Position numbers and translations under genes: made by a program
The notes under the pieces: model-generated
What the model was told of the DNA's origin: nothing
Database searches by the model: none
Seen by the model: the letters and a program-made list of their open reading frames with translations, nothing else
In this document: positions 1 through 16,850 of the stretch, in pieces
Layout of the letters: each line of letters opens with the position of its first letter
How positions within the stretch are numbered: position 1 is the first letter of the stretch
Source: a virus
Lineage: Duplodnaviria; Heunggongvirae; Uroviricota; Caudoviricetes
Virus record (IMG/VR): IMGVR_UViG_2693429706_000001
Direction: 5' to 3' (one strand)
DNA length: 18,039 bases

Positions 1-756
1 TTGAGTGCGGGACGCCTGAATAAAAAATCTCTGGGTATCGTGATGTTGTTATCGGTTGGACTGCTTTTGGCGGGCTGTTCGGGTAGCAAATCATCCGATA
101 CAGGAACGTATTCCGGCTCCGTTTACACCGTGAAACGGGGGGATACGCTATATCGTATTTCGCGCACCACGGGAACCAGCGTAAAAGAACTGGCGCGACT
201 GAACGGCATTTCCCCCCCTTACACCATTGAAGTTGGTCAGAAACTAAAACTGGGTGGGGCGAAAAGTAGCAGTATTACACGTAAATCAACCGCCAAATCA
301 ACGACCAAAACCGCATCGGTTACACCGTCATCAGCGGTACCGAAATCATCCTGGCCGCCAGTAGGGCAACGTTGTTGGTTATGGCCAACGACAGGGAAAG
401 TTATCATGCCGTATTCGACAGCAGATGGCGGCAATAAAGGGATTGATATCTCAGCTCCACGGGGTACACCTATTTACGCCGCGGGTGCAGGAAAGGTGGT
501 GTATGTGGGCAACCAGCTGCGTGGCTACGGTAATCTCATCATGATTAAACACAGTGAAGATTACATTACGGCTTACGCCCATAATGACACGATGCTGGTA
601 AATAATGGGCAAAGCGTGAAGGCTGGGCAAAAAATCGCCACTATGGGGAGCACGGATGCGGCATCTGTTCGCCTGCATTTCCAGATTCGTTACCGTGCAA
701 CGGCAATTGATCCGCTACGTTACTTGCCGCCGCAGGGCAGCAAGCCAAAATGCTGA
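1..756 (+). CDS. ygeR: LysM-domain / M23 (LytM)-family peptidase lipoprotein, YgeR-like
   Basis: 251-aa ORF with signal peptide ending in lipobox LLAGC, a LysM motif (YTVKRGDTLYRISR...LARLNGI) and a C-terminal M23-type peptidase region; lies directly upstream of tRNA-Gly as in the E. coli ygeR-glyU locus. First codon is TTG at window position 1, so the true start and upstream context are not visible. Confidence 0.85.
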   Translation: MSAGRLNKKSLGIVMLLSVGLLLAGCSGSKSSDTGTYSGSVYTVKRGDTLYRISRTTGTSVKELARLNGISPPYTIEVGQKLKLGGAKSSSITRKSTAKSTTKTASVTPSSAVPKSSWPPVGQRCWLWPTTGKVIMPYSTADGGNKGIDISAPRGTPIYAAGAGKVVYVGNQLRGYGNLIMIKHSEDYITAYAHNDTMLVNNGQSVKAGQKIATMGSTDAASVRLHFQIRYRATAIDPLRYLPPQGSKPKC

Positions 757-834
757 TGGCGAATTAATCAGCAGTCAGCAGCGCGGCACTTGCTAAGGAG
801 AGCGTAAGGTTTATAATGCCTTACGCATCTCGAA

Positions 835-908
835 GCGGGCGTAGTTCAATGGTAGAACGAGAGCTTCCCAAGCTCTATACGAGGGTTCGATTCCCTTCGC
901 CCGCTCCA
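835..908 (+). tRNA. glyU: tRNA-Gly (anticodon CCC)
   Basis: 74-nt sequence GCGGGCGTAGTTCAATGGTAGAACGAGAGCTTCCCAAGCTCTATACGAGGGTTCGATTCCCTTCGCCCGCTCCA with acceptor stem, D-loop, anticodon loop CTTCCCAAG, T-loop GGTTCGATTCC and encoded CCA end; matches my recollection of E. coli glyU. Confidence 0.92.
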
Positions 909-1308
909 ATTTATCTTCACCTCATCAATCTGCCATTTTTGCTGTATCTGATTTTCTATATTATCTTAATTCAATCGCTTCAGACTTTTCGCAATCGCCG
1001 TAATATTTCCCCATTTTGTTGTAAATAAAAAGCGTTTACGCAATGCAATCCTTTTGTAACAACCCAGGTAAAACACCTTATTTTCAAGTTGTTAAATAAG
1101 TGGTTATCTACGCTTTTAACAAACGATTGATGGAATATTTTATGAAAGGGAAATCTGCATTAACTCTTCTGCTCGCTGGTATATTTTCGTGCGGCACATG
1201 CCAGGCGACAGGGGCAGAAGTGACGAGTGAATCTGTATTTAACATTCGGTAATGACTCCAACTTATTGATAGTGTTTTATGTTCAGATAATGCCCGATGA
1301 CTTTGTCA

Positions 1309-1318
1309 NNNNNNNNNN
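1309..1318. other. assembly gap (run of 10 N)
   Basis: Ten consecutive n characters; the ORF track translates them as XXXX inside a minus-strand ORF. Confidence 0.99.
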
Positions 1319-5022: not shown

Positions 5023-5718
5023 AACGCACACCTCCGGAAATACCTTCCCCAAGATGCATCAGTTCTTCGTCCGTTCGCTCCGGTATCCCGTTCTCTTCCG
5101 GTAAAAGGCTGAAATCAGCCACCGCAGCATCACTGCTGCCGGACACCATTCTCACGATCAATGCCTTCAGCGAGGCAAACTGCGCATCCATCCACACATC
5201 ACTGAAGCTCTGCATCCGGAAATAATCGCCCCACTCACCAAGCTCAGTGGCCGACATTTCCGACAGCATCCGCCGCCAGTCTGCCCGCCTGAACTCCCGG
5301 GCAAGCCGCATGACAAACTGCATTTCCCGCGTCAGGACTTTTCCGGCGTCAGCACCTCATGCTCCAAATCCCCGGCATTCTCAATGGCTCCCATACCGCT
5401 CAGCGACAGAACCATCTCCGCCCCCGCTCCCAGGGCATCATACGACCATGTTGTAATAACGGATGCGCAAAGCGTCTCAACATCCTGAGACTGTTCCGCA
5501 TTCCACAGTGAGCGGGAAACCAGCCAGGCATTGATATCCATCCCCATCCGCAGAAAAGCAATCTGTCGTTCAGCCTCCGGCAGTTCTCCCTCTTCGGCAT
5601 CAAACTTTGCCGTTCGCTGCTGAACAAACGCCAGATATTCAATTCTCTGCAGCCCGGACAGCTCACTGAGCACCACGGACTGCTTTTCATAATTAAACGT
5701 GCCCTGTTTCAGAAACAT
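4994..5718 (-). CDS. tail assembly chaperone G-T fusion, made by programmed -1 ribosomal frameshift near the end of G
   Basis: The T-like ORF (MQFVMRLAREFRRADWRR...) is in the -1 frame relative to G, is open from 5356, and overlaps the 3' end of G; a slippery-type heptamer GGAAAAG sits at 5344..5338. Same architecture as lambda G/GT. Confidence 0.7.
5332..5718 (-). CDS. tail assembly chaperone G
   Basis: MFLKQGTFNYEKQSVVLSELSGLQRIEYLA... aligns with lambda gpG (MFLKTESFEHNGVTVTLSELSALQRIEHLA...). Start chosen at the second ATG of ATGATG (5718), 6 nt after GGAG; the ORF-track start at 5760 is TTG and spans a terminator hairpin. Confidence 0.85.
   Translation of the reverse strand: MFLKQGTFNYEKQSVVLSELSGLQRIEYLAFVQQRTAKFDAEEGELPEAERQIAFLRMGMDINAWLVSRSLWNAEQSQDVETLCASVITTWSYDALGAGAEMVLSLSGMGAIENAGDLEHEVLTPEKS
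5338..5344 (-). other. candidate -1 frameshift slippery heptamer GGAAAAG (G GAA AAG in the G frame)
   Basis: Minus-strand sequence CCG GAA AAG TCC TGA closes G; shifting -1 gives GGA AAA GTC CTG ACG ..., which continues into T. The lambda site is GGGAAAG, one base different. Confidence 0.55.
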
Positions 5719-5734
5719 CATGTTCTCCACCTGC

Positions 5735-5758
5735 AAAAAAGCCCCGGATAACCGGGGC
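5735..5758 (-). terminator. intrinsic (rho-independent) terminator between V and G
   Basis: Minus-strand GCCCCGG-TTAT-CCGGGGC (perfect 7-bp GC stem, 4-nt loop) followed directly by TTTTTT; lies in the 57-nt V-G intergenic space. Confidence 0.7.
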
Positions 5759-5778
5759 AAATGATGAGTATCGTCCTG

Positions 5779-6522
5779 TTAACCTGCGGCGCTGACAGCC
5801 ACCGCAGCCACTGCCACAAAATCGCCGTCAGAAGTCATGCCCACAATGCTGACACTGCCCTGCTTCACGCCTTTCACCGTGGCCACAAGCCCGTTCAGGG
5901 TCACCGTGGCAGTCTGTGGATCTGTCGAATGCACACTGATCGCTTTGTCACTGGCTCCGTCAGGTTTTACTGTAAAGGTCAGCGTGGTGGTTGCTCCCAC
6001 TTTTACACTGGCAGATGCCGGTGCCACCGTCAGCCCGGTAACGCTCACTGTTTCAGTGCCTTCCTCTGCCAGATACGGACGCCCCACACCGCTGATTTTC
6101 ACTGTGTGGGTCATCACGTCTTTTGAGGCAATGGTTTTACCCAGTGAGCTCAGCCAGCCACGGAAAACATCAACAGTGCCGTTGGGATATTTGATACGAA
6201 ACGCGCAGACTTCACCGGAGTCGAACAACTGAACCAGTTTTTTCTGTCCGCTGTCACCCGGACGCCAGGCCAGCGTCGCCGAAGTATCACCGACGGATTT
6301 CTGCCCCTGGGTTGTCGTTTTCCAGTCTGCATCTTCATCATCGAGATAAGTGTCATCTTCTGCATCAGCGGTCATTTCGCCAGGTTGCAGATCCTTCACC
6401 ATCGCAAGACGCAGCCAGTCAGTGTCCGATAAAGGGTTCGCAAACGCATCGCCCTTGCCGGTGTACATCCAGAACGTCGTTCCCGCACCTTTCGTTTTTG
6501 CCAGTGGATTTGGTGTGGTCAT
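5779..6522 (-). CDS. major tail protein V with C-terminal Ig-like (Big_2-type) domain
   Basis: ...KTKGAGTTFWMYTGKGDAFANPLSDTDWLRLAMVKDL...DDEDADWKTTTQGQKSVGDTSATLAW... is collinear with lambda gpV; the C-terminal region (VTGLTVAPASASVKVGATTTLTFTVKPDGASDK...) is Ig-like. Start at ATG 6522, 6 nt after AAGGAG; the ORF-track first codon is GTG. Confidence 0.9.
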   Translation of the reverse strand: MTTPNPLAKTKGAGTTFWMYTGKGDAFANPLSDTDWLRLAMVKDLQPGEMTADAEDDTYLDDEDADWKTTTQGQKSVGDTSATLAWRPGDSGQKKLVQLFDSGEVCAFRIKYPNGTVDVFRGWLSSLGKTIASKDVMTHTVKISGVGRPYLAEEGTETVSVTGLTVAPASASVKVGATTTLTFTVKPDGASDKAISVHSTDPQTATVTLNGLVATVKGVKQGSVSIVGMTSDGDFVAVAAVAVSAAG

Positions 6523-6533
6523 TGCCACCTCCT

Positions 6534-6935
6534 TTAATTCGTGTACGTGATCTGGTACGTGATTTCCGCCATCGCCCAGGTGGCCATCTCATTATCACGT
6601 TGATAGTTAAAACCGAGAGGGATCAGGGTGTCGATGAGTCCGGAAAGTGCCGGTATATCATTCAGAGCCGGGAAAATGGTGCTCTCCATCCACATATCCA
6701 GCTCTGAATCCGGTGCCTGTGCCCGGATGAAGACAGCAATATGCAGAACAGCCTGCCAGTCATCTTCATCCGTCATTTTTCCGGTGTACTGAGCATCACT
6801 CAGCCACACCGCCACGGCAGGCAGTTCCTGCGCATCAATAAATGCCGGAAGCCCGTCAAAAAACGTGGCGCTGTCTCCACACTGTTCCCGAAGGCGTGCC
6901 AGTACGGCCTGGCGGATTTGTGTATGTCGGTTCAT
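6534..6935 (-). CDS. minor tail protein U (tail terminator)
   Basis: MNRHTQIRQAVLARLREQCGDSATFFDGLPAFIDAQELPAVAVWLSDAQYTG...ITYQITY aligns with lambda gpU along its length; the ATG overlaps the Z stop (ATGA). Confidence 0.88.
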   Translation of the reverse strand: MNRHTQIRQAVLARLREQCGDSATFFDGLPAFIDAQELPAVAVWLSDAQYTGKMTDEDDWQAVLHIAVFIRAQAPDSELDMWMESTIFPALNDIPALSGLIDTLIPLGFNYQRDNEMATWAMAEITYQITYTN

Positions 6936-8156: not shown

Positions 8157-8175
8157 AAAAAAAGCCCTTACGGGC
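8157..8175 (-). terminator. intrinsic terminator immediately after the major capsid gene
   Basis: Minus-strand GCCC-GTAA-GGGC (GNRA-type tetraloop) followed by TTTTTTT; begins 25 nt after the capsid stop codon at 8200. Confidence 0.6.
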
Positions 8176-8199
8176 CATCAGAGTTGTTGTCTGCGACGT

Positions 8200-10209
8200 T
8201 TACGCCGTACATTTCACCAGACCGCGGTGATCAACTGGCGCGACACCGGCGTCAATACGCACTTTCGTTGTCACGCCATCCACACTGAAGCCCTCCATCT
8301 GATCAATATATGGCGTATCCACACCGTTGAGATAAGCCACTTCAATCGTATCGGAGCCTTTTGACGCAGCCAGGTAGAAGGTGGTCTGGCTGTTATCATC
8401 AAGACGAGGCTCTGCAATAACGGTCGCAAAATCTTTCACCGGGTTAATAATACCGGCGTTAATGTCAGCCCCCTTGACACTTGAGGAGCGAATGACCTGG
8501 TTAGCAACAGACTCCATCGCCGTCGGTACCAGTACGAACGCAGGACGAATATTCAGATGACGCTCCCCCTCTTTCTGAACGCGCATCAACTGGCGGGCTT
8601 TATCCAGCGATGCCACGTCCATTGCAGCGCTCTCCAGTACGTTTGCATGTTTCGCTTTATCGAACAGACTTACATTATCTGTGGAGATTTTCGGGTTAGA
8701 CGTCAGAATGGCATAAACCAGATCGGCAATAGTGGATTTCGCCGCACGGCCCAGTTTCATCGGGACATCGGTCAGCATATTCAGATCATCATTGATAATG
8801 GCCTGACGGGTGATACTGAACAGCTCGCCATAGGTCGCCAGTGCAATAGTGGCCTGTTTATCTCCGGTGGTGACGTATTTATATTCCGCCCCTTCACGCA
8901 CCTGACGCAGAGCACTGAAGCCACCCATACCCACACGATGGGCAATTTTAAAATCAGACAACTGACCTTTCCGCGTCCACTGTTCATAGGTTTCAGGGGC
9001 ATCTTCCCAGCCCTGCAGAATGGCTTTGTTCGCAACATCCAGCAGAATATTACCGAAGTCAGACGTACTGTGTGTGAACGCCGCACCGACCATCTGCATC
9101 GGGTTATAACTGGAAACCCCAATACCCCGTTCAGTCAGTGACATACGGGCATATTCACGCAGGGTCATCCCGTTGTAGACATTATCACGTTCGGTTTTTT
9201 CAAATCCGGCACGCGCCATCAGCGCCTGGCGGATCCCGTCCCCCACAAAATTACCGTTACCGGCATAAATATGAGCCGGGGTATTTTTATTGGATGGCGT
9301 GGACTCGCGCCCCATCTCGTTCAACAGCTTTTCGCGGGCCTGCTCCAGCGAACATTCAGGATCGGCAAGACACTGAGCCTGCAGCGTCTGATAACGCCCG
9401 CCAAACATGGCAAACAGATCATTAATACCGTTTACACGCGCTTTTTGCTCTGCCAGTACCTGCGCACGGATGCTGTTTTCATCCACCACGGGTGCTGCTG
9501 CCTGCACTGGCGTCCGGGAGGCTTCAGGTTCATTATCCTGTACGCGTGGAGCACTGTTGCGTGGCGGAGTAATCATGTTTCGAATGGATTCCGGCATCTT
9601 TTTAAATTCCTCTGTACGTTTTGACTGAATACATGCCATTGCCTTAACGGCTGGCGTTACCTGATCAGCAAATCCATGTGCCAGACATTCGGCACCGGAC
9701 ATCCAGGTCTCATCCGCCAGCATGGCAGCAATTTCATCGGTGGTTTTCCCGGTTTTCTGTGCATAAGCGGGTAACAGAACCGCCTCAACTTTATCGAGCA
9801 GGTCGGCATAGGTGCGCATGTCCTCCGCATCACCGCCCGTAAAGCCAAATGGTTTATGAATCATCATGAAGGTGTTTTCCGGCATAATGACCGGGTTTCC
9901 CACCATCGCAATGACCGACGCCATTGACGCCGCCACACCGTCGACATAAACGGTAATGGACGCACCATGTGTTTTCAGCGCATTAAAAATGGCGATGCCT
10001 TCAAAGACATCGCCACCCGGTGAATTAATATGGAGATTAATGTGGGTGATATCGCCCAGTGCATTCAGATCACTGATAAACTGCTTCGCTGTAACACCCC
10101 AGAAACCAATCTCGTCATAAATATAAATATCCGCGTCACTCTGGTGACCAGCCTGCATCCTGAACCAGGAATTATTCTTCGGACTGGTCGTCGGTGTGCT
10201 GCGGCTCAT
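8200..10209 (-). CDS. fused prohead protease (ClpP/S14-like) - scaffold - HK97-fold major capsid protein
   Basis: N-terminal region has ClpP hallmarks (INSPGGDVFEGIAIFNAL..., VDGVAASMASVIAMVG with the nucleophile Ser, MIHKP with the His); a central Ala/Gln/Glu-rich linker; the C-terminal ~300 aa resemble a phage major capsid protein. Start uncertain: ATG 10209 overlaps the portal by 38 nt, the alternative ATG at 10158 lies 13 nt after the portal stop; neither has a strong Shine-Dalgarno. Confidence 0.8.
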   Translation of the reverse strand: MSRSTPTTSPKNNSWFRMQAGHQSDADIYIYDEIGFWGVTAKQFISDLNALGDITHINLHINSPGGDVFEGIAIFNALKTHGASITVYVDGVAASMASVIAMVGNPVIMPENTFMMIHKPFGFTGGDAEDMRTYADLLDKVEAVLLPAYAQKTGKTTDEIAAMLADETWMSGAECLAHGFADQVTPAVKAMACIQSKRTEEFKKMPESIRNMITPPRNSAPRVQDNEPEASRTPVQAAAPVVDENSIRAQVLAEQKARVNGINDLFAMFGGRYQTLQAQCLADPECSLEQAREKLLNEMGRESTPSNKNTPAHIYAGNGNFVGDGIRQALMARAGFEKTERDNVYNGMTLREYARMSLTERGIGVSSYNPMQMVGAAFTHSTSDFGNILLDVANKAILQGWEDAPETYEQWTRKGQLSDFKIAHRVGMGGFSALRQVREGAEYKYVTTGDKQATIALATYGELFSITRQAIINDDLNMLTDVPMKLGRAAKSTIADLVYAILTSNPKISTDNVSLFDKAKHANVLESAAMDVASLDKARQLMRVQKEGERHLNIRPAFVLVPTAMESVANQVIRSSSVKGADINAGIINPVKDFATVIAEPRLDDNSQTTFYLAASKGSDTIEVAYLNGVDTPYIDQMEGFSVDGVTTKVRIDAGVAPVDHRGLVKCTA

Positions 10210-11680
10210 GTCGTTTCGTTGCGGCACTGCTGCCTCCTTTATCACTGGCCGGATCGGTATCAAATACCAGATCCAGCTTGCGGTTTTCATCAATTTCGGC
10301 CTTGCGCCGACGTTTGACATCATCCGGATTACGACCACCAGCACGTACCCAGTCTGATTCTGTCGCCGCTCCACCACGAATCTGGATTTTCCAGGCCTCA
10401 GCCTCCTTAACAGGGTCAATCCACGGCATCACCGGTCCGGAATACACCGCGGTATACAGTGAAGAACGGTCAAGATCGCGGGGTAGCCTGATAACACCGG
10501 ATGCCACAGCCTGTTTCAGCCAGGCACGATACATCGGACGGGTGACGGCACCAATAAACCAGTCCTGCAGGATCAGGTAGCCATCAGTGGATTCAACCAG
10601 CTCCTGACGCTGGGCGCTGTAAGTGCCGTTATAGTTGCGCGCTGTACTGGAAAAACTCAGACGACTGCCCGCCGCCACGGCACGCAACTGACCATTACGA
10701 AAAGTTTCAAGGTTAGGATTGGGGCGATCCGACTTCACCATTCCGATTTCTTCGCCGGGTTTCAGATCATCGTAAATAATGCCTGGCTGAATGGTAAGCT
10801 CGCGTTCCTTATCCTTGCTGCCATTACCATCCGCTTCATAGCTCTGCCCGTCGCCTTTCCGGATGTACATCCCCAGAGCAGCGGCGATCCTTGCTGCAGT
10901 CAGCTCAGAATCTTCATACTCTTTCAGAGCACTGAGGCGGATCAGCACACCGGACAATAAAGACGTCCCGCGCATCTGGTGCAGACGGCGAACAAATTTA
11001 AGATGCAGCATTCGCTCTGCATCCACTTCTTTGGTTTCCATCTGCCGTCCGGATACGGGACGGCTTTTATACACCAGATATTTTTCGGGACGCCCCCAGT
11101 CATCAACAAACACGCCCTGATTCAGCCTGTTGCTCTCATCACTGGTCATGGGAATAAAGTCCGGCTCGAGCGCCTCCAGCCAGAAATGAACACCGGCAGA
11201 AGGCGTCAGGCTGTTTATGCGCCCGGAAACCATCTGGGCAAACACCTCACCATCGCGCAGCCAGGTACGAAGCATCAGACGTTCCAGCATCGGACGGGTA
11301 AACTGCCCGGTGACTTCCGGGCTGACAGACCATTCACTCCATCGGGTGCGAATCTCCGCAGCCAGGTCACGGGCAATGGCCCCATTGCGTAATACCGGAT
11401 GTGGCTCGACAATAATCCCGTTTTTCCCCACCACCCGTTCTTCCAGCTTGTCAAATACACCAATAACCAGATCGTGGTTGTTATCAAGGTAACGGGCCTG
11501 CTCACGTAACGACACGGCCCCGTACTGGCTTAACTGGTCGGCAGTTCGGTTCTCCCGTCGGGCTTTGTGTGTCCGCGTCGTTTTTACGGCCTCATAAGCC
11601 TGGATCACCGCACGGGAACGCAGCCTTGCCGCTTTCCATCCTGGTGAAAAAACGCCAATCACATCATCAAGAATTGCCAT
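10172..11680 (-). CDS. portal protein (lambda gpB family)
   Basis: 502-aa ORF in the portal position between gpW-like and protease genes. Start set at ATG 11680 (MAILDDVIGVFSPGW...) with GAGG 5 nt upstream and a 1-nt overlap with the W stop (TGATG). Confidence 0.85.
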   Translation of the reverse strand: MAILDDVIGVFSPGWKAARLRSRAVIQAYEAVKTTRTHKARRENRTADQLSQYGAVSLREQARYLDNNHDLVIGVFDKLEERVVGKNGIIVEPHPVLRNGAIARDLAAEIRTRWSEWSVSPEVTGQFTRPMLERLMLRTWLRDGEVFAQMVSGRINSLTPSAGVHFWLEALEPDFIPMTSDESNRLNQGVFVDDWGRPEKYLVYKSRPVSGRQMETKEVDAERMLHLKFVRRLHQMRGTSLLSGVLIRLSALKEYEDSELTAARIAAALGMYIRKGDGQSYEADGNGSKDKERELTIQPGIIYDDLKPGEEIGMVKSDRPNPNLETFRNGQLRAVAAGSRLSFSSTARNYNGTYSAQRQELVESTDGYLILQDWFIGAVTRPMYRAWLKQAVASGVIRLPRDLDRSSLYTAVYSGPVMPWIDPVKEAEAWKIQIRGGAATESDWVRAGGRNPDDVKRRRKAEIDENRKLDLVFDTDPASDKGGSSAATKRHEPQHTDDQSEE

Positions 11681-15293: not shown

Positions 15294-15500
15294 TTTGTCG
15301 CTCCATGCGTTTGCTCTTCACTTACGGCTAAAAATATAACGTCAAATCACTCAGCATGAAAGAGTTAAAGATTCAGCGCGTTTCCCTTACATAATCTGTC
15401 GTTTGTATTCTCTTCAGGCATACCGGAAAGACTAGGTATTGTCACACAACCAATACCATCGACAATCGAGATTTATACCTATTCGGTAATGTTTAAATAT

Positions 15501-15523
15501 AACAAAACCCCGTAAAAACGAGG
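15501..15523 (-). terminator. possible intrinsic terminator downstream of the gns-like gene
   Basis: Minus-strand CCTCG-TTTTTA-CGGGG (5-bp stem with one G-U pair) followed by TTTTGTT, about 60 nt after the gns-like stop. Confidence 0.3.
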
Positions 15524-15586
15524 TTTATGGGTAATTTGTATTGTTGAATAGCATCTGATGAGAAATTGATGCTAATACTAAACAGA

Positions 15587-15760
15587 CTAGATTAAATCAA
15601 TCTTGATATCATAGCTTTCAAGACCAGTCATTTTTTCCCGTGCAGTAAACTGGATACTGGTAACTTCTTTCCCGGTCTTTTTCTTAAGCTCAATGATTTT
15701 TTTTGTTATATATTCAGAAATATCTGCTTCTGTTTTTGTTTTTAACTCTTCAATGTTCAT
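15587..15760 (-). CDS. GnsA/GnsB-family small protein (57 aa)
   Basis: MNIEELKTKTEADISEYITKKIIELKKKTGKEVTSIQFTAREKMTGLESYDIKIDLI is collinear with E. coli GnsA/GnsB (MNIEEL...TGKEV...FTAREKMTGLESYD.KI); start at the second ATG (15760), 4-5 nt after AAGAGGA. Confidence 0.85.
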   Translation of the reverse strand: MNIEELKTKTEADISEYITKKIIELKKKTGKEVTSIQFTAREKMTGLESYDIKIDLI

Positions 15761-15932
15761 CATTTCCTCTTTTAGTCTGTTATGACTTTCCTGGTACACA
15801 GTAGTGTCAATTATATGGAGCAAACGTATAAAAGATAAGATGAAACATCGCAATAATCAACATACGACGGTCTAAATTTCACACAAACAGATAAAGATGA
15901 TTATCATTTATTATCAATGCATTAGAATCAAA

Positions 15933-16124
15933 TCAATTCAAGAGTCTCATTGCTGCTTCCAGAATTTCTTCTGAAGTTACATGTCGATCCGCTGCTACAT
16001 AAATGACTTTATGATCTCCGGTCAGAGATGGAAACCCTGCAGCCATTACAGTGAGGTGTGTTGTTTCGCCATTTGGATATTCACGCATGATGGTGTTAAC
16101 TCCGGTCATCACTGGCACTACCAT
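15933..16124 (-). CDS. hypothetical small protein (63 aa) in the position occupied by ynfN in Qin
   Basis: ATG-initiated ORF MVVPVMTGVNTIMREYPNGETTHLTVMAAGFPSLTGDHKVIYVAADRHVTSEEILEAAMRLLN between the csp and gns-like genes; no family recognised by eye. Confidence 0.5.
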   Translation of the reverse strand: MVVPVMTGVNTIMREYPNGETTHLTVMAAGFPSLTGDHKVIYVAADRHVTSEEILEAAMRLLN

Positions 16125-16208
16125 TGCTGGTTCAGAGTTAAAAAAAACTATTATTTTTTTTCATAATGTTACCGTAATATGTGAGTATCCATCGACTAGA
16201 CACTAAGC

Positions 16209-16228
16209 AAAAAAGCTCCCGAAGGAGC
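16209..16228 (-). terminator. intrinsic terminator ending the csp transcription unit
   Basis: Minus-strand GCTCC-TTCG-GGAGC (UUCG tetraloop) followed by TTTTTT, immediately after the stop of the zinc-ribbon mini-ORF and about 210 nt after the csp stop. Confidence 0.7.
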
Positions 16229-16236
16229 CTTCATTT

Positions 16237-16452
16237 TCACTTTCTTAAATCTAACGATAGACGGCTAACATTTAAGTATTGTGAAATATTATCAAATGTA
16301 ATCATCATTGATTTACAAAAGATACATTTTGCCCCGAAAGGATTCCTGTCAGAAACATCAAAAGATGATGTTCTATACTGAGAACCATGGCAACACGGGC
16401 ATCTAAAGTGAATATGGTTTGTAATATTTTCTACCTCAAAGTGCCACAACAT
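16237..16452 (-). CDS. candidate zinc-ribbon small protein (71 aa; paired CPCC and CIFC motifs)
   Basis: ORF in a different frame whose ATG (16452) lies inside the last codons of csp (17-nt overlap); product [50 protein letters not shown].... Directly followed by a strong terminator. Position matches the small proteins reported next to cold-shock genes (YmcF/YnfQ type), but identity is not confirmed. Confidence 0.35.
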
Positions 16453-16648
16453 GAACAGCCGCGGGGCCTTTAGGTCCGTTCTCAATACCAAATTCGACTT
16501 CCTGATTCTCAGTTAACGTTTTGAAATCGTTGCTCTGAATAGCTGAGAAATGGACAAACACATCTTTGCTACCATCTTTCGGCGTGATGAAACCAAAACC
16601 TTTTTCAGGGTTAAACCATTTCACTAAACCAGTCATTTTGTTAGACAT
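16436..16648 (-). CDS. cold-shock protein, CspA family (CspI/CspB-like)
   Basis: [70 protein letters not shown] has the RNP1 motif (KGFGFI) and RNP2 motif (VFVHF) of the cold-shock domain; AAGG Shine-Dalgarno upstream of a tandem ATG ATG. Confidence 0.93.
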
Positions 16649-16850
16649 CATTATTACCTTTTGAAGAAGTTAGCCCTTGGGCAGAATGGTCCGAAAAAAA
16701 ATATCAGAGAGAAAAACCAACAAGGAAATCTCAAGAGGTACAAATAATAAAATTATAACAATGACTGCTTCAGATAATTTTGTAACAAACCAGAACACCA
16801 TTAACGCATGATTAACCAACCATAGCAAGGATTACTTTTGTAAAGAAAAA
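16649..16850 (-). promoter_or_regulatory. putative csp promoter and long AT-rich 5' leader
   Basis: About 360 nt of AT-rich non-coding sequence separates the Rz stop from the csp start. CspA-family genes characteristically have long regulatory 5' UTRs, but I did not locate exact promoter or cold-box motifs. Confidence 0.3.

What the first reader, a model, noticed from the sequence alone, without database searches (positions are those of the whole stretch)
5719..5778. Strong intrinsic terminator inside the tail operon between V and G
A perfect 7-bp GC hairpin with a U6 tract sits in the 57-nt gap after the major tail protein gene and just before the G Shine-Dalgarno. Partial termination here would lower the supply of the downstream chaperone and tape-measure messages relative to the abundant tube protein V, a known stoichiometry strategy. 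The ORF-track TTG-initiated extension of G reads through this hairpin and is therefore unlikely to be real.
Basis: seen in the sequence. Interest (0 to 1): 0.35.

Follow-up and report, generated by a model that had tools for sequence, protein, structure and literature searches.

The report
Annotated terminator after tail tube gene
A textbook hairpin-plus-U-tract transcription stop signal really does sit between the tail-tube gene V and the chaperone gene G of this E. coli lambdoid prophage. It is ordinary, is already annotated in near-identical phages, and its effect in an antiterminated late operon is untested.

Summary
On the minus strand, GCCCCGG-UUAU-CCGGGGC (5758..5741, -15 kcal/mol) is followed by U6 (5740..5735). 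It lies 20 nt after the V stop codon and just before the G ribosome-binding site, in a 57-nt gap. A signal this strong arose in 2 of 2000 shuffles of the window.

The feature is not new. The same site is annotated as a terminator in phages Ayreon (99.7% identical) and mEp460. The junction occurs in about a third of complete E. coli genomes.

Among relatives with 73-100% V identity, the stem core, the T-tract and the ribosome-binding site are the only invariant parts of the gap. More distant V-G junctions have either no gap (lambda), a different hairpin with a U-tract 17-24 nt after the stop, or a U-less tetraloop hairpin mostly 4-7 nt after the stop.

The stoichiometry idea is plausible but only partly supported. 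Related phages drive late genes with a Q antiterminator, which suppresses terminator hairpins. A second such signal precedes a cement-protein gene, probably as abundant as the capsid protein. The real effect may therefore be leaky termination plus stabilisation of the 3' end of V message.

The parts
5779..6522 (-). Major tail tube protein gene V (ATG 6522, stop TAA 5781..5779). The mechanical ORF list extends it to GTG 6528.
   Evidence: Pfam Phage_TTP_12 (E 2.7e-66) plus a C-terminal Big_2 domain. Annotated as major tail protein in Ayreon and mEp460. Start and stop codons checked.
5759..5778 (-). 20-nt spacer between the V stop codon and the first stem nucleotide.
   Evidence: stop+20. The sequence diverges among relatives while the hairpin does not. 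This distance lies in the range where a trailing ribosome partly represses intrinsic termination (PMC4824070).
5741..5758 (-). Terminator hairpin GCCCCGG-UUAU-CCGGGGC: 7 G-C/C-G pairs and a 4-nt loop.
   Evidence: -15.0 kcal/mol alone. Found in 2 of 2000 shuffles. Falls inside the 'terminator' features of MF807953 (8742..8782) and JQ182728 (8751..8774). 95.6% of cells are paired across 13 distinct homologous sequences.
5735..5740 (-). U6 tract immediately 3' of the stem.
   Evidence: T43-T45 are invariant, and every full-length variant of the window-type hairpin (V 85-100% identity) keeps 5-7 T.
5725..5731 (-). Shine-Dalgarno GGTGGAG of G, 3 nt before the first ATG and 6 nt before the second.
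   Evidence: GG (G54, G55) is invariant in alignment A2.
5332..5721 (-). Tail assembly chaperone gene G. Start is ATG 5721 (GenBank phage records) or ATG 5718 (PGAP). The TTG at 5760 is not the start.
   Evidence: Pfam Phage_TAC_2 (E 1.8e-39), with profile position 1 at residue 2. Annotation. Gap-length indels of 1-2 nt in relatives.
8157..8176 (-). Sister terminator-like signal GGCCC-GUAA-GGGCU plus a U-run, in the 86-nt gap after the protease-scaffold-capsid fusion gene and before the cement-protein gene.
   Evidence: Hairpin -8.3 kcal/mol. Not the MFE structure of its surroundings. Annotated as terminator in Ayreon and mEp460. Flanking gene identities.

Best explanation
This is a genuine Rho-independent terminator at the 3' end of the tail-tube gene V, inside the late operon of a lambdoid (mEp460/Ayreon/cdtI-type) E. 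coli prophage. Unmodified RNA polymerase should stop here efficiently.

During lytic growth the late operon is most likely read by Q-loaded, terminator-resistant polymerase. The hairpin starts only 20 nt behind the V stop codon, where closely following ribosomes also interfere with termination. Termination is therefore expected to be leaky. A minority of transcripts would end at about 5735, and the rest would continue into G, T and the tape-measure gene.

Both terminated transcripts and read-through transcripts later cut downstream would carry the GC hairpin at their 3' end, which protects V message from 3'-exonucleases. The net effect would be more, or longer-lived, V message than G/T/H message.

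Shown here: the anatomy, the placement, the conservation and the prior annotation. Inferred: leakiness, the stabilising effect and any consequence for protein stoichiometry.
For: - **Anatomy and rarity:**. A d'Aubenton-Carafa-type score is about 41 (the formula was recalled from memory).
- **Placement:** only two gaps longer than 13 nt exist in the terS-to-L block. Both carry hairpin-plus-U-run signals, one after the capsid gene and one after V.
- **Prior annotation:** the same site is annotated as 'terminator' or 'rho-independent terminator' in MF807953 and JQ182728.
- **Conservation in close relatives:** the junction is present in 1833 of 5426 complete E. coli genomes. In relatives down to 73% V identity the invariant gap columns are the stem core, T43-45 and the SD GG, while the spacer diverges. 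95.6% of cells are paired, with one G-C to A-U double change and several G-U changes.
- **Recurrence in distant relatives:** unrelated hairpins with a U-tract recur at the same place in Kluyvera, Klebsiella, Ewingella and Providencia prophages. They always start 17-24 nt after the stop.
- **Ribosome proximity:** termination efficiency rises with distance from the stop codon and is intermediate and sequence-dependent near 17-18 nt (PMC4824070).
- **Stabilisation:** strong terminators raise upstream transcript abundance (PMC11696848).
Against: - There are no transcript 3'-end or coverage data for this phage.
- Q antitermination (10.1101/651190) could reduce termination to near zero in lytic growth.
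- The Q gene is outside the window and is inferred only from phages with a near-identical structural module.
- Lambda and many relatives assemble tails with a 6-20 nt V-G gap and no hairpin.
- The capsid-gene terminator precedes a cement-protein gene whose product is probably needed in capsid-like amounts (the copy number is my inference). That weakens the stoichiometry logic.
- Covariation within the homologous set does not exceed the shuffle controls.
- This copy lies in a prophage whose tail gene L is interrupted at an N-gap/IS1 junction, so it may not currently be under selection.
Confidence: 0.55

Rival explanations
1. The selected feature is the hairpin itself, acting as a 3'-exonuclease barrier (selective RNA processing and stabilisation). 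Q-loaded polymerase reads through completely. The polycistronic RNA is then cut downstream, and the V segment is protected by the hairpin. The U-tract would be incidental.
For: - Q forms a nozzle that prevents terminator hairpin formation (10.1101/651190).
- Twelve distinct V-G gaps in other Enterobacterales carry GC hairpins with no adequate U-tract at the same junction. They come from Citrobacter, Trabulsiella, Buttiauxella, Dryocola, Atlantibacter, Leclercia and Kosakonia genomes and one viral contig. Their loops include UUCG and GNRA types.
- Stem-loops at the 3' ends of highly expressed genes set complex stoichiometry in a clostridial operon (PMC4423207).
Against: - In this lineage the T-tract is as invariant as the stem, while the flanks diverge.
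- U-tract hairpins sit 17-24 nt after the stop, whereas U-less ones mostly sit 4-7 nt after it. That geometry is expected if the U-tract class really terminates (PMC4824070).
- No processing site is known.
Confidence: 0.2
2. It is one of a series of barriers that make late-gene expression strictly Q-dependent. It would stop unmodified polymerase in the lysogen, coming from leaky pR', from spurious promoters or from the csp/gns moron upstream, before it expresses tail genes. It would have little role in stoichiometry.
For: - Ayreon has at least 7 annotated terminators spread along the late transcription unit, starting right after Q. mEp460 has several too.
- The window carries a moron on the same strand upstream of terS, with a cspA-like thermoregulator, a YmcF-like ORF and a GnsAB ORF.
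Against: - This does not explain why the only two long gaps in the structural block follow the capsid and tube genes.
- The moron has its own terminator-like hairpin at 15526..15505.
Confidence: 0.15
3. It is a neutral leftover: a scar of module exchange or of moron insertion and loss at the V-G junction. It would be kept by linkage in a recently spread prophage family and have no current function.
For: - Lambda-type relatives lack it entirely.
- Providencia prophages carry 0.8-1.3 kb insertions at exactly this junction, just after the V terminator. The one inspected, L150, holds a 277-aa ORF.
- Some E. coli copies carry single mismatches at the loop-closing pair.
Against: - Hairpins of at least five unrelated sequences recur at this junction across genera.
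- The stem core, T-tract and SD are the only invariant gap columns down to 73% V identity.
- It is not a dispersed repeat: 1412 places, median one per genome.
Confidence: 0.1

Closest known systems
The 'terminator' features annotated in Escherichia phage Ayreon (MF807953, 8742..8782) and Enterobacteria phage mEp460 (JQ182728, 8751..8774, 'rho-independent terminator')
   Same: The same sequence element at the same V-G junction. The 1.3-kb V-G segment queried (window 5300..6600) is 99.7% and 97.4% identical to them.
   Different: Nothing structural. Those annotations are also computational, so no experiment is attached in the records seen here.
Partial terminators after genes for abundant virion proteins in other phages (T7 T-phi after capsid gene 10; the f1/M13 terminator after coat gene VIII), recalled from established knowledge and not tested here
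   Same: An intrinsic terminator directly after the gene for a very abundant structural protein, with read-through into genes needed in smaller amounts.
   Different: Those operons are not transcribed by Q-modified host polymerase. T7 uses its own RNA polymerase. Efficiency here is unknown.
Lambda late operon with Q antitermination (tR' and downstream terminators)
   Same: The same gene order (Z-U-V-G-T-H-M-L) and the same protein families. Related phages carry a Q protein followed by a terminator.
   Different: Lambda's V-G gap is 15 nt with no hairpin. The Q here is of the Pfam Antiterm (PF03589) type and lies outside the window.
Selective RNA processing and stabilisation stem-loops (for example the cip-cel operon, PMC4423207)
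   Same: A stable stem-loop at the 3' end of the most highly needed gene of a polycistron that encodes a multi-subunit assembly.
   Different: Here a full U-tract is present and conserved. No processing sites or transcript abundances are known.

Membership tests
Rho-independent (intrinsic) terminator | GC-rich stem-loop with a short loop | tested here: met
   7 perfect G-C/C-G pairs, a 4-nt loop, -15.0 kcal/mol.
Rho-independent (intrinsic) terminator | U-tract immediately 3' of the stem on the transcribed strand | tested here: met
   U6 at 5740..5735 directly after the stem. There is no T-tract on the + strand.
Rho-independent (intrinsic) terminator | Located downstream of a stop codon, far enough for the hairpin to fold behind the ribosome | tested here: inconclusive
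   It is intergenic, 20 nt after the V stop. In PMC4824070, termination efficiency at 17-18 nt ranged from about 0.12 to about 0.8 and reached its maximum beyond 30 nt. Partial function is therefore expected, not proven.
Rho-independent (intrinsic) terminator | Hairpin and U-tract maintained in relatives | tested here: met
   The stem core and T43-45 are invariant and 95.6% of cells are paired. Different hairpins with a U-tract occur at the same site in other genera. Covariation alone is not significant.
Rho-independent (intrinsic) terminator | Transcript 3' ends and RNA release at the U-tract | not testable with these tools
   No Term-seq, RNA-seq or in vitro transcription data are available.
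Q-antiterminated lambdoid late operon | Q gene plus a promoter-proximal terminator upstream of the lysis and structural genes | tested here: inconclusive
   These lie outside the window. They are present in Ayreon (Pfam Antiterm, E 9.6e-54, followed by an annotated terminator) and in mEp460. The window has the expected order of lysis, terminase, head and tail genes.
SRPS / 3'-stabilising stem-loop | Stable stem-loop at the 3' end of a highly expressed gene inside a polycistron | tested here: met
   V is the tube protein gene. That it is highly expressed is inferred from its role, not measured.
SRPS / 3'-stabilising stem-loop | Adjacent processing site and skewed transcript abundance | not testable with these tools
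   No RNA data.
Dispersed palindromic repeats (REP/BIME-like) | Many copies per genome in unrelated contexts | tested here: not met
   The 41-nt core occurs at 1412 places in 1356 genomes, median 1 and maximum 3 per genome. That is fewer places than the V-G junction itself has, 2002. It occurs once in the window.
Known Rfam cis-regulatory RNA | Match to a curated covariance model | tested here: not met
   At gathering threshold there is no hit at 5719..5778. The only hits are the cspA thermoregulator at 16390..16806 and a tRNA at 835..905.

The most novel reading that the evidence does not exclude
The post-V hairpin would be one state of a recurrent RNA element at the tube-chaperone junction of lambda-like tail modules, and this element would switch between two modes.

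One mode is a true terminator, with a U-tract and a start 17-24 nt after the stop codon. The other is a U-less hairpin with UUCG, GNRA or other tetraloops that mostly starts 4-7 nt after the stop, directly in front of the G ribosome-binding site.

The common selected function in Q-antiterminated operons would then be post-transcriptional: a stable 3' end for V message, uncoupling of G translation from V, or both. It would not be termination.
Probability: 0.25. Interest if true: 0.35.

Novelty: already known. Interest (0 to 1): 0.15.

Why it matters
If the signal does work, it shows how a phage whose late genes are read by terminator-resistant polymerase can still skew message levels toward the tail tube protein. 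By established knowledge of lambda, the tube protein is needed in far greater numbers than the chaperones and tape measure.

That would be a modest, confirmatory point about virion stoichiometry. It would not open a new question.

Practically, it confirms the correct start of gene G. It also flags the element as a compact, strong, natural E. coli terminator.

Tried and rejected
- **Extended stem over the G ribosome-binding site.** The MFE structure of the gap pairs UC.AUCAUU with the G ribosome-binding site. It adds only about 2 kcal/mol, has an ensemble frequency of 0.09, is absent from the centroid, and is not kept in relatives whose SD region differs, such as L087 and L229. Rejected as an SD-sequestering switch.
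- **Terminator for + strand transcription.** No T-tract follows the palindrome on that strand. Rejected.
- **REP-like mobile palindrome.** Rejected on copy number.
- **Known Rfam family.** None found.
- **Formal covariation test.** Among homologous gaps there is only one double-sided change, which does not exceed the shuffles. The structural argument therefore rests on conservation and on recurrence of different hairpins, not on covariation.
- **Close-relative scans.** A scan of viral contigs with the G protein, and a second with the V alignment, returned mostly near-identical E. coli prophages and added little diversity. The genome-contig scan gave the useful spread.
- **Link to sRNA-17.** This small RNA is reported in a mEp460-like prophage of E. 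coli RS218 (PMC7719688). It maps to a stretch longer than 1 kb that the authors treated as intergenic, not to this 57-nt gap. The RS218 record could not be fetched, so its position relative to the window is unknown.
- **Literature searches.** Searches for direct transcript data on terminators after tail-tube genes in lambdoid phages found nothing specific.

Full report
**What is there**

Read on the minus strand, the segment is TAA (V stop, 5781..5779), then a 20-nt spacer, then GCCCCGG-TTAT-CCGGGGC (5758..5741), then TTTTTT (5740..5735). It continues GCA, GGTGGAG (5731..5725), AAC and ATGATG (5721..5716).

The stem has seven perfect G-C/C-G pairs. The hairpin alone folds at -15.0 kcal/mol, and -16.2 with short flanks. 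It is the centroid structure of the 60-nt gap.

The consensus scan ranks it first among all terminator-like sites in the window. In 2000 dinucleotide-preserving shuffles of the whole window, a 7-bp perfect stem with at least 6 GC pairs followed by T6 appeared on either strand only twice. The bulk folding z-score of the 60-mer is unremarkable at -1.59. What is non-random is the specific anatomy and where it sits.

On the + strand the palindrome is followed by AAATGATG, so it can act only on minus-strand transcripts.

**Context**

The minus strand carries a lambdoid late region. In order it holds lysozyme, a DUF2514 (Rz-position) gene and a 2.5-kb moron region. Then come small and large terminase, a W-like gene, portal, and a ClpP-protease/scaffold/capsid fusion. 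These are followed by a cement protein, a Gifsy-2/FII-like protein, and Z, U, V, G, T, the tape measure, M and a truncated L.

- V matches Phage_TTP_12 (E 2.7e-66) plus a Big_2 domain.
- G matches Phage_TAC_2 (E 1.8e-39).
- The following ORF matches Phage_tail_T.

From terS to L, the genes overlap or are 8-13 nt apart, with two exceptions. One is an 86-nt gap after the capsid fusion gene. The other is the 57-nt gap after V. Each carries a hairpin plus U-run on the coding strand.

**Already annotated**

The 1.3 kb around the site is 99.7% identical to Escherichia phage Ayreon. It is 97-98% identical to mEp460, cdtI and others.

Ayreon annotates a regulatory 'terminator' at 8742..8782. mEp460 annotates a 'rho-independent terminator' at 8751..8774. 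Both lie exactly between the major tail protein and the G-like gene. Both records also annotate the one after the capsid fusion gene.

The V-G junction is present with at least 80% coverage in 1833 of 5426 complete E. coli genomes. The 41-nt core occurs about once per genome that has it, so it is not a dispersed repeat. Rfam has no family for it.

**The start of G**

- The phage records start G at the first ATG (5721), and PGAP starts it at the second (5718).
- The Pfam G profile begins at residue 2 of the ATG-initiated protein.
- The SD GGTGGAG lies 3 and 6 nt upstream of the two ATGs.
- Close relatives have gaps of 57, 56 and 55 nt. A coding extension would not tolerate those length changes.

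**Comparative evidence**

I collected V homologues and aligned a diverse set. I then fetched 160 loci from species-representative genomes and viral contigs and located the V stop and the G start in each.

Among relatives that clearly share this gap (V identity 73-100%), the spacer and the region after the T-tract diverge. The only invariant gap columns are the stem core (CCCG/GGG), three T's of the tract and the GG of the SD.

Across 13 distinct sequences, 95.6% of cells are paired. There is one G-C to A-U double change and several G-U changes. This does not exceed the shuffle controls, so covariation by itself proves nothing.

Across the wider family, the 56 distinct V-G gaps fall into classes.
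- **No hairpin, gap under 25 nt:** 18 distinct gaps in 46 loci, including lambda (15 nt by annotation).
- **GC hairpin plus U-tract:** about two dozen gaps. Their stem sequences are unrelated to one another (GGCUCC in Kluyvera and Klebsiella, AGCCCC in Ewingella, AGCCACA in Providencia). All start 17-24 nt after the stop codon.
- **GC hairpin without an adequate U-tract:** 12 gaps. The loops include UUCG and GNRA types. Ten start 4-7 nt after the stop and directly precede the G SD (Trabulsiella, Buttiauxella, Dryocola, Atlantibacter, Leclercia, Kosakonia). Two are intermediate, at stop +10 and +13 (viral contig L241, Citrobacter L092).
- **No convincing hairpin:** 1 gap (Sodalis).

A hairpin after V is therefore recurrent but dispensable. 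In the window's lineage the U-tract is conserved as tightly as the stem.

**Mechanism**

For unmodified RNA polymerase this is a strong terminator. A d'Aubenton-Carafa-type score is about 41, against about 23 for the capsid one (the formula was recalled from memory).

Two things should make it leaky in lytic growth. First, phages with this structural module carry a Q antiterminator. In Ayreon it matches Pfam Antiterm (E 9.6e-54) and is followed by an annotated terminator. Ayreon has at least seven annotated terminators along its late unit, and mEp460 has a 'late gene regulator' similar to Q. Q-loaded polymerase narrows the RNA exit channel and prevents terminator hairpins from forming (10.1101/651190).

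Second, the stem starts 20 nt after the stop codon of a gene that is presumably heavily translated. In E. coli, termination is almost abolished a few nt after a gene. It is sequence-dependent near 17-18 nt, with efficiencies from about 0.12 to about 0.8. It reaches its maximum only beyond about 30 nt (PMC4824070).

Whatever fraction terminates, the resulting RNA ends in a stable GC hairpin. So does any read-through RNA trimmed back from downstream. Strong terminators raise upstream transcript abundance about 2.2-fold on average (PMC11696848). Stem-loops at the 3' ends of abundant genes set complex stoichiometry in a clostridial operon (PMC4423207).

My best reading, at confidence 0.55, is a real but leaky terminator. 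Its combined termination and 3'-end stabilisation would enrich V message over G/T/H message.

**Rivals**

- **Pure stabiliser (0.20).** This is favoured by the U-less relatives and by Q. It is disfavoured by the invariant U-tract and by the difference in distance from the stop codon between the two hairpin classes.
- **Q-dependence barrier for the lysogen (0.15).** This fits the many terminators along the operon and the csp/gns moron upstream. It does not explain the placement after the capsid and tube genes.
- **Neutral scar (0.10).** This fits lambda's lack of the element and the insertions at this junction in Providencia. It does not fit the conservation pattern.

One caveat applies to the stoichiometry story in general. 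The sister terminator sits between the capsid gene and a cement-protein gene, and the cement protein is probably needed in capsid-like numbers. That copy number is my inference.

**Verdict**

The feature is ordinary and already annotated in public phage records. Interest is low.

Noticed in passing
window 1..1318: Positions 1..1308 are E. coli chromosome, not phage: actS (LysM + Peptidase_M23), tRNA-Gly (835..905) and an IS1 fragment. A run of 10 N (1309..1318) follows, and then tail gene L, truncated. This is either a scaffold join through IS1 or an IS1-disrupted prophage, so this copy may be defective.
   Followed up: partly
window 8157..8176 (-): A second terminator-like signal, GGCCC-GUAA-GGGCU plus a U-run, lies in the 86-nt gap after the protease-scaffold-capsid fusion gene. 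It is annotated as a terminator in Ayreon and mEp460. It precedes a cement-protein gene, which sits awkwardly with a stoichiometric step-down.
   Followed up: partly
window 15500..16810 (-): A moron lies between the lysis genes and terS. It holds a full-length Rfam cspA thermoregulator match (16390..16806, 109.8 bits) that overlaps a 71-aa ORF at 16436..16651. It also holds a YmcF-like ORF (16240..16491), a GnsAB-toxin-family ORF (15590..15853) and a terminator-like hairpin at 15526..15505.
   Followed up: no
window 5338..5344 (-): An A-rich motif, GGAAAAG, lies 3 nt before the G stop codon. The -1 frame is open from there into the Phage_tail_T ORF, as expected for a G-T frameshift. The motif is not lambda's GGGAAAG as I recall it.
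   Followed up: no
L104, L108, L109, L111, L113, L126, L128, L129, L149, L161 (V-G gaps): Other Enterobacterales prophages have GC hairpins without a U-tract, with tetraloops that include UUCG and GNRA types. They start only 4-7 nt after the V stop and abut the G ribosome-binding site. They form a class distinct from the hairpins with U-tracts.
   Followed up: partly
L150 3007..4364; also L153 and L163: Providencia prophages have 0.8-1.3 kb inserted between the V terminator and G. In L150 the insert holds a 277-aa ORF that looks by eye like a KilA-N or antirepressor-type protein, which was not tested. The V-G junction is therefore also a moron insertion site.
   Followed up: partly
L085 and L114-L125: A contig essentially identical to this E. 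coli prophage over V (100%, 99.6% in the local re-check) is labelled 'MAG: Bacillota bacterium'. Loci whose V and G identities equal lambda's (54.7% and 33.3%) appear in assemblies named Neobacillus, Pseudomonas, Shewanella, Kitasatospora and others. These are most likely contamination or lambda spike-in.
   Followed up: no
window, both strands: There are 41 terminator-like sites against 16.7 expected from shuffles. They include a strong one on the + strand, antisense to the portal gene (11044..11064, 7 pairs with 6 GC, then TTTTAT). This is unexplained.
   Followed up: no
mEp460-like prophage of E. coli RS218 (not in the window for certain): A 193-nt ArcA-regulated small RNA, sRNA-17, is reported inside a mEp460-like prophage (PMC7719688). 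I could not fetch the RS218 record to see whether it maps to this window.
   Followed up: partly
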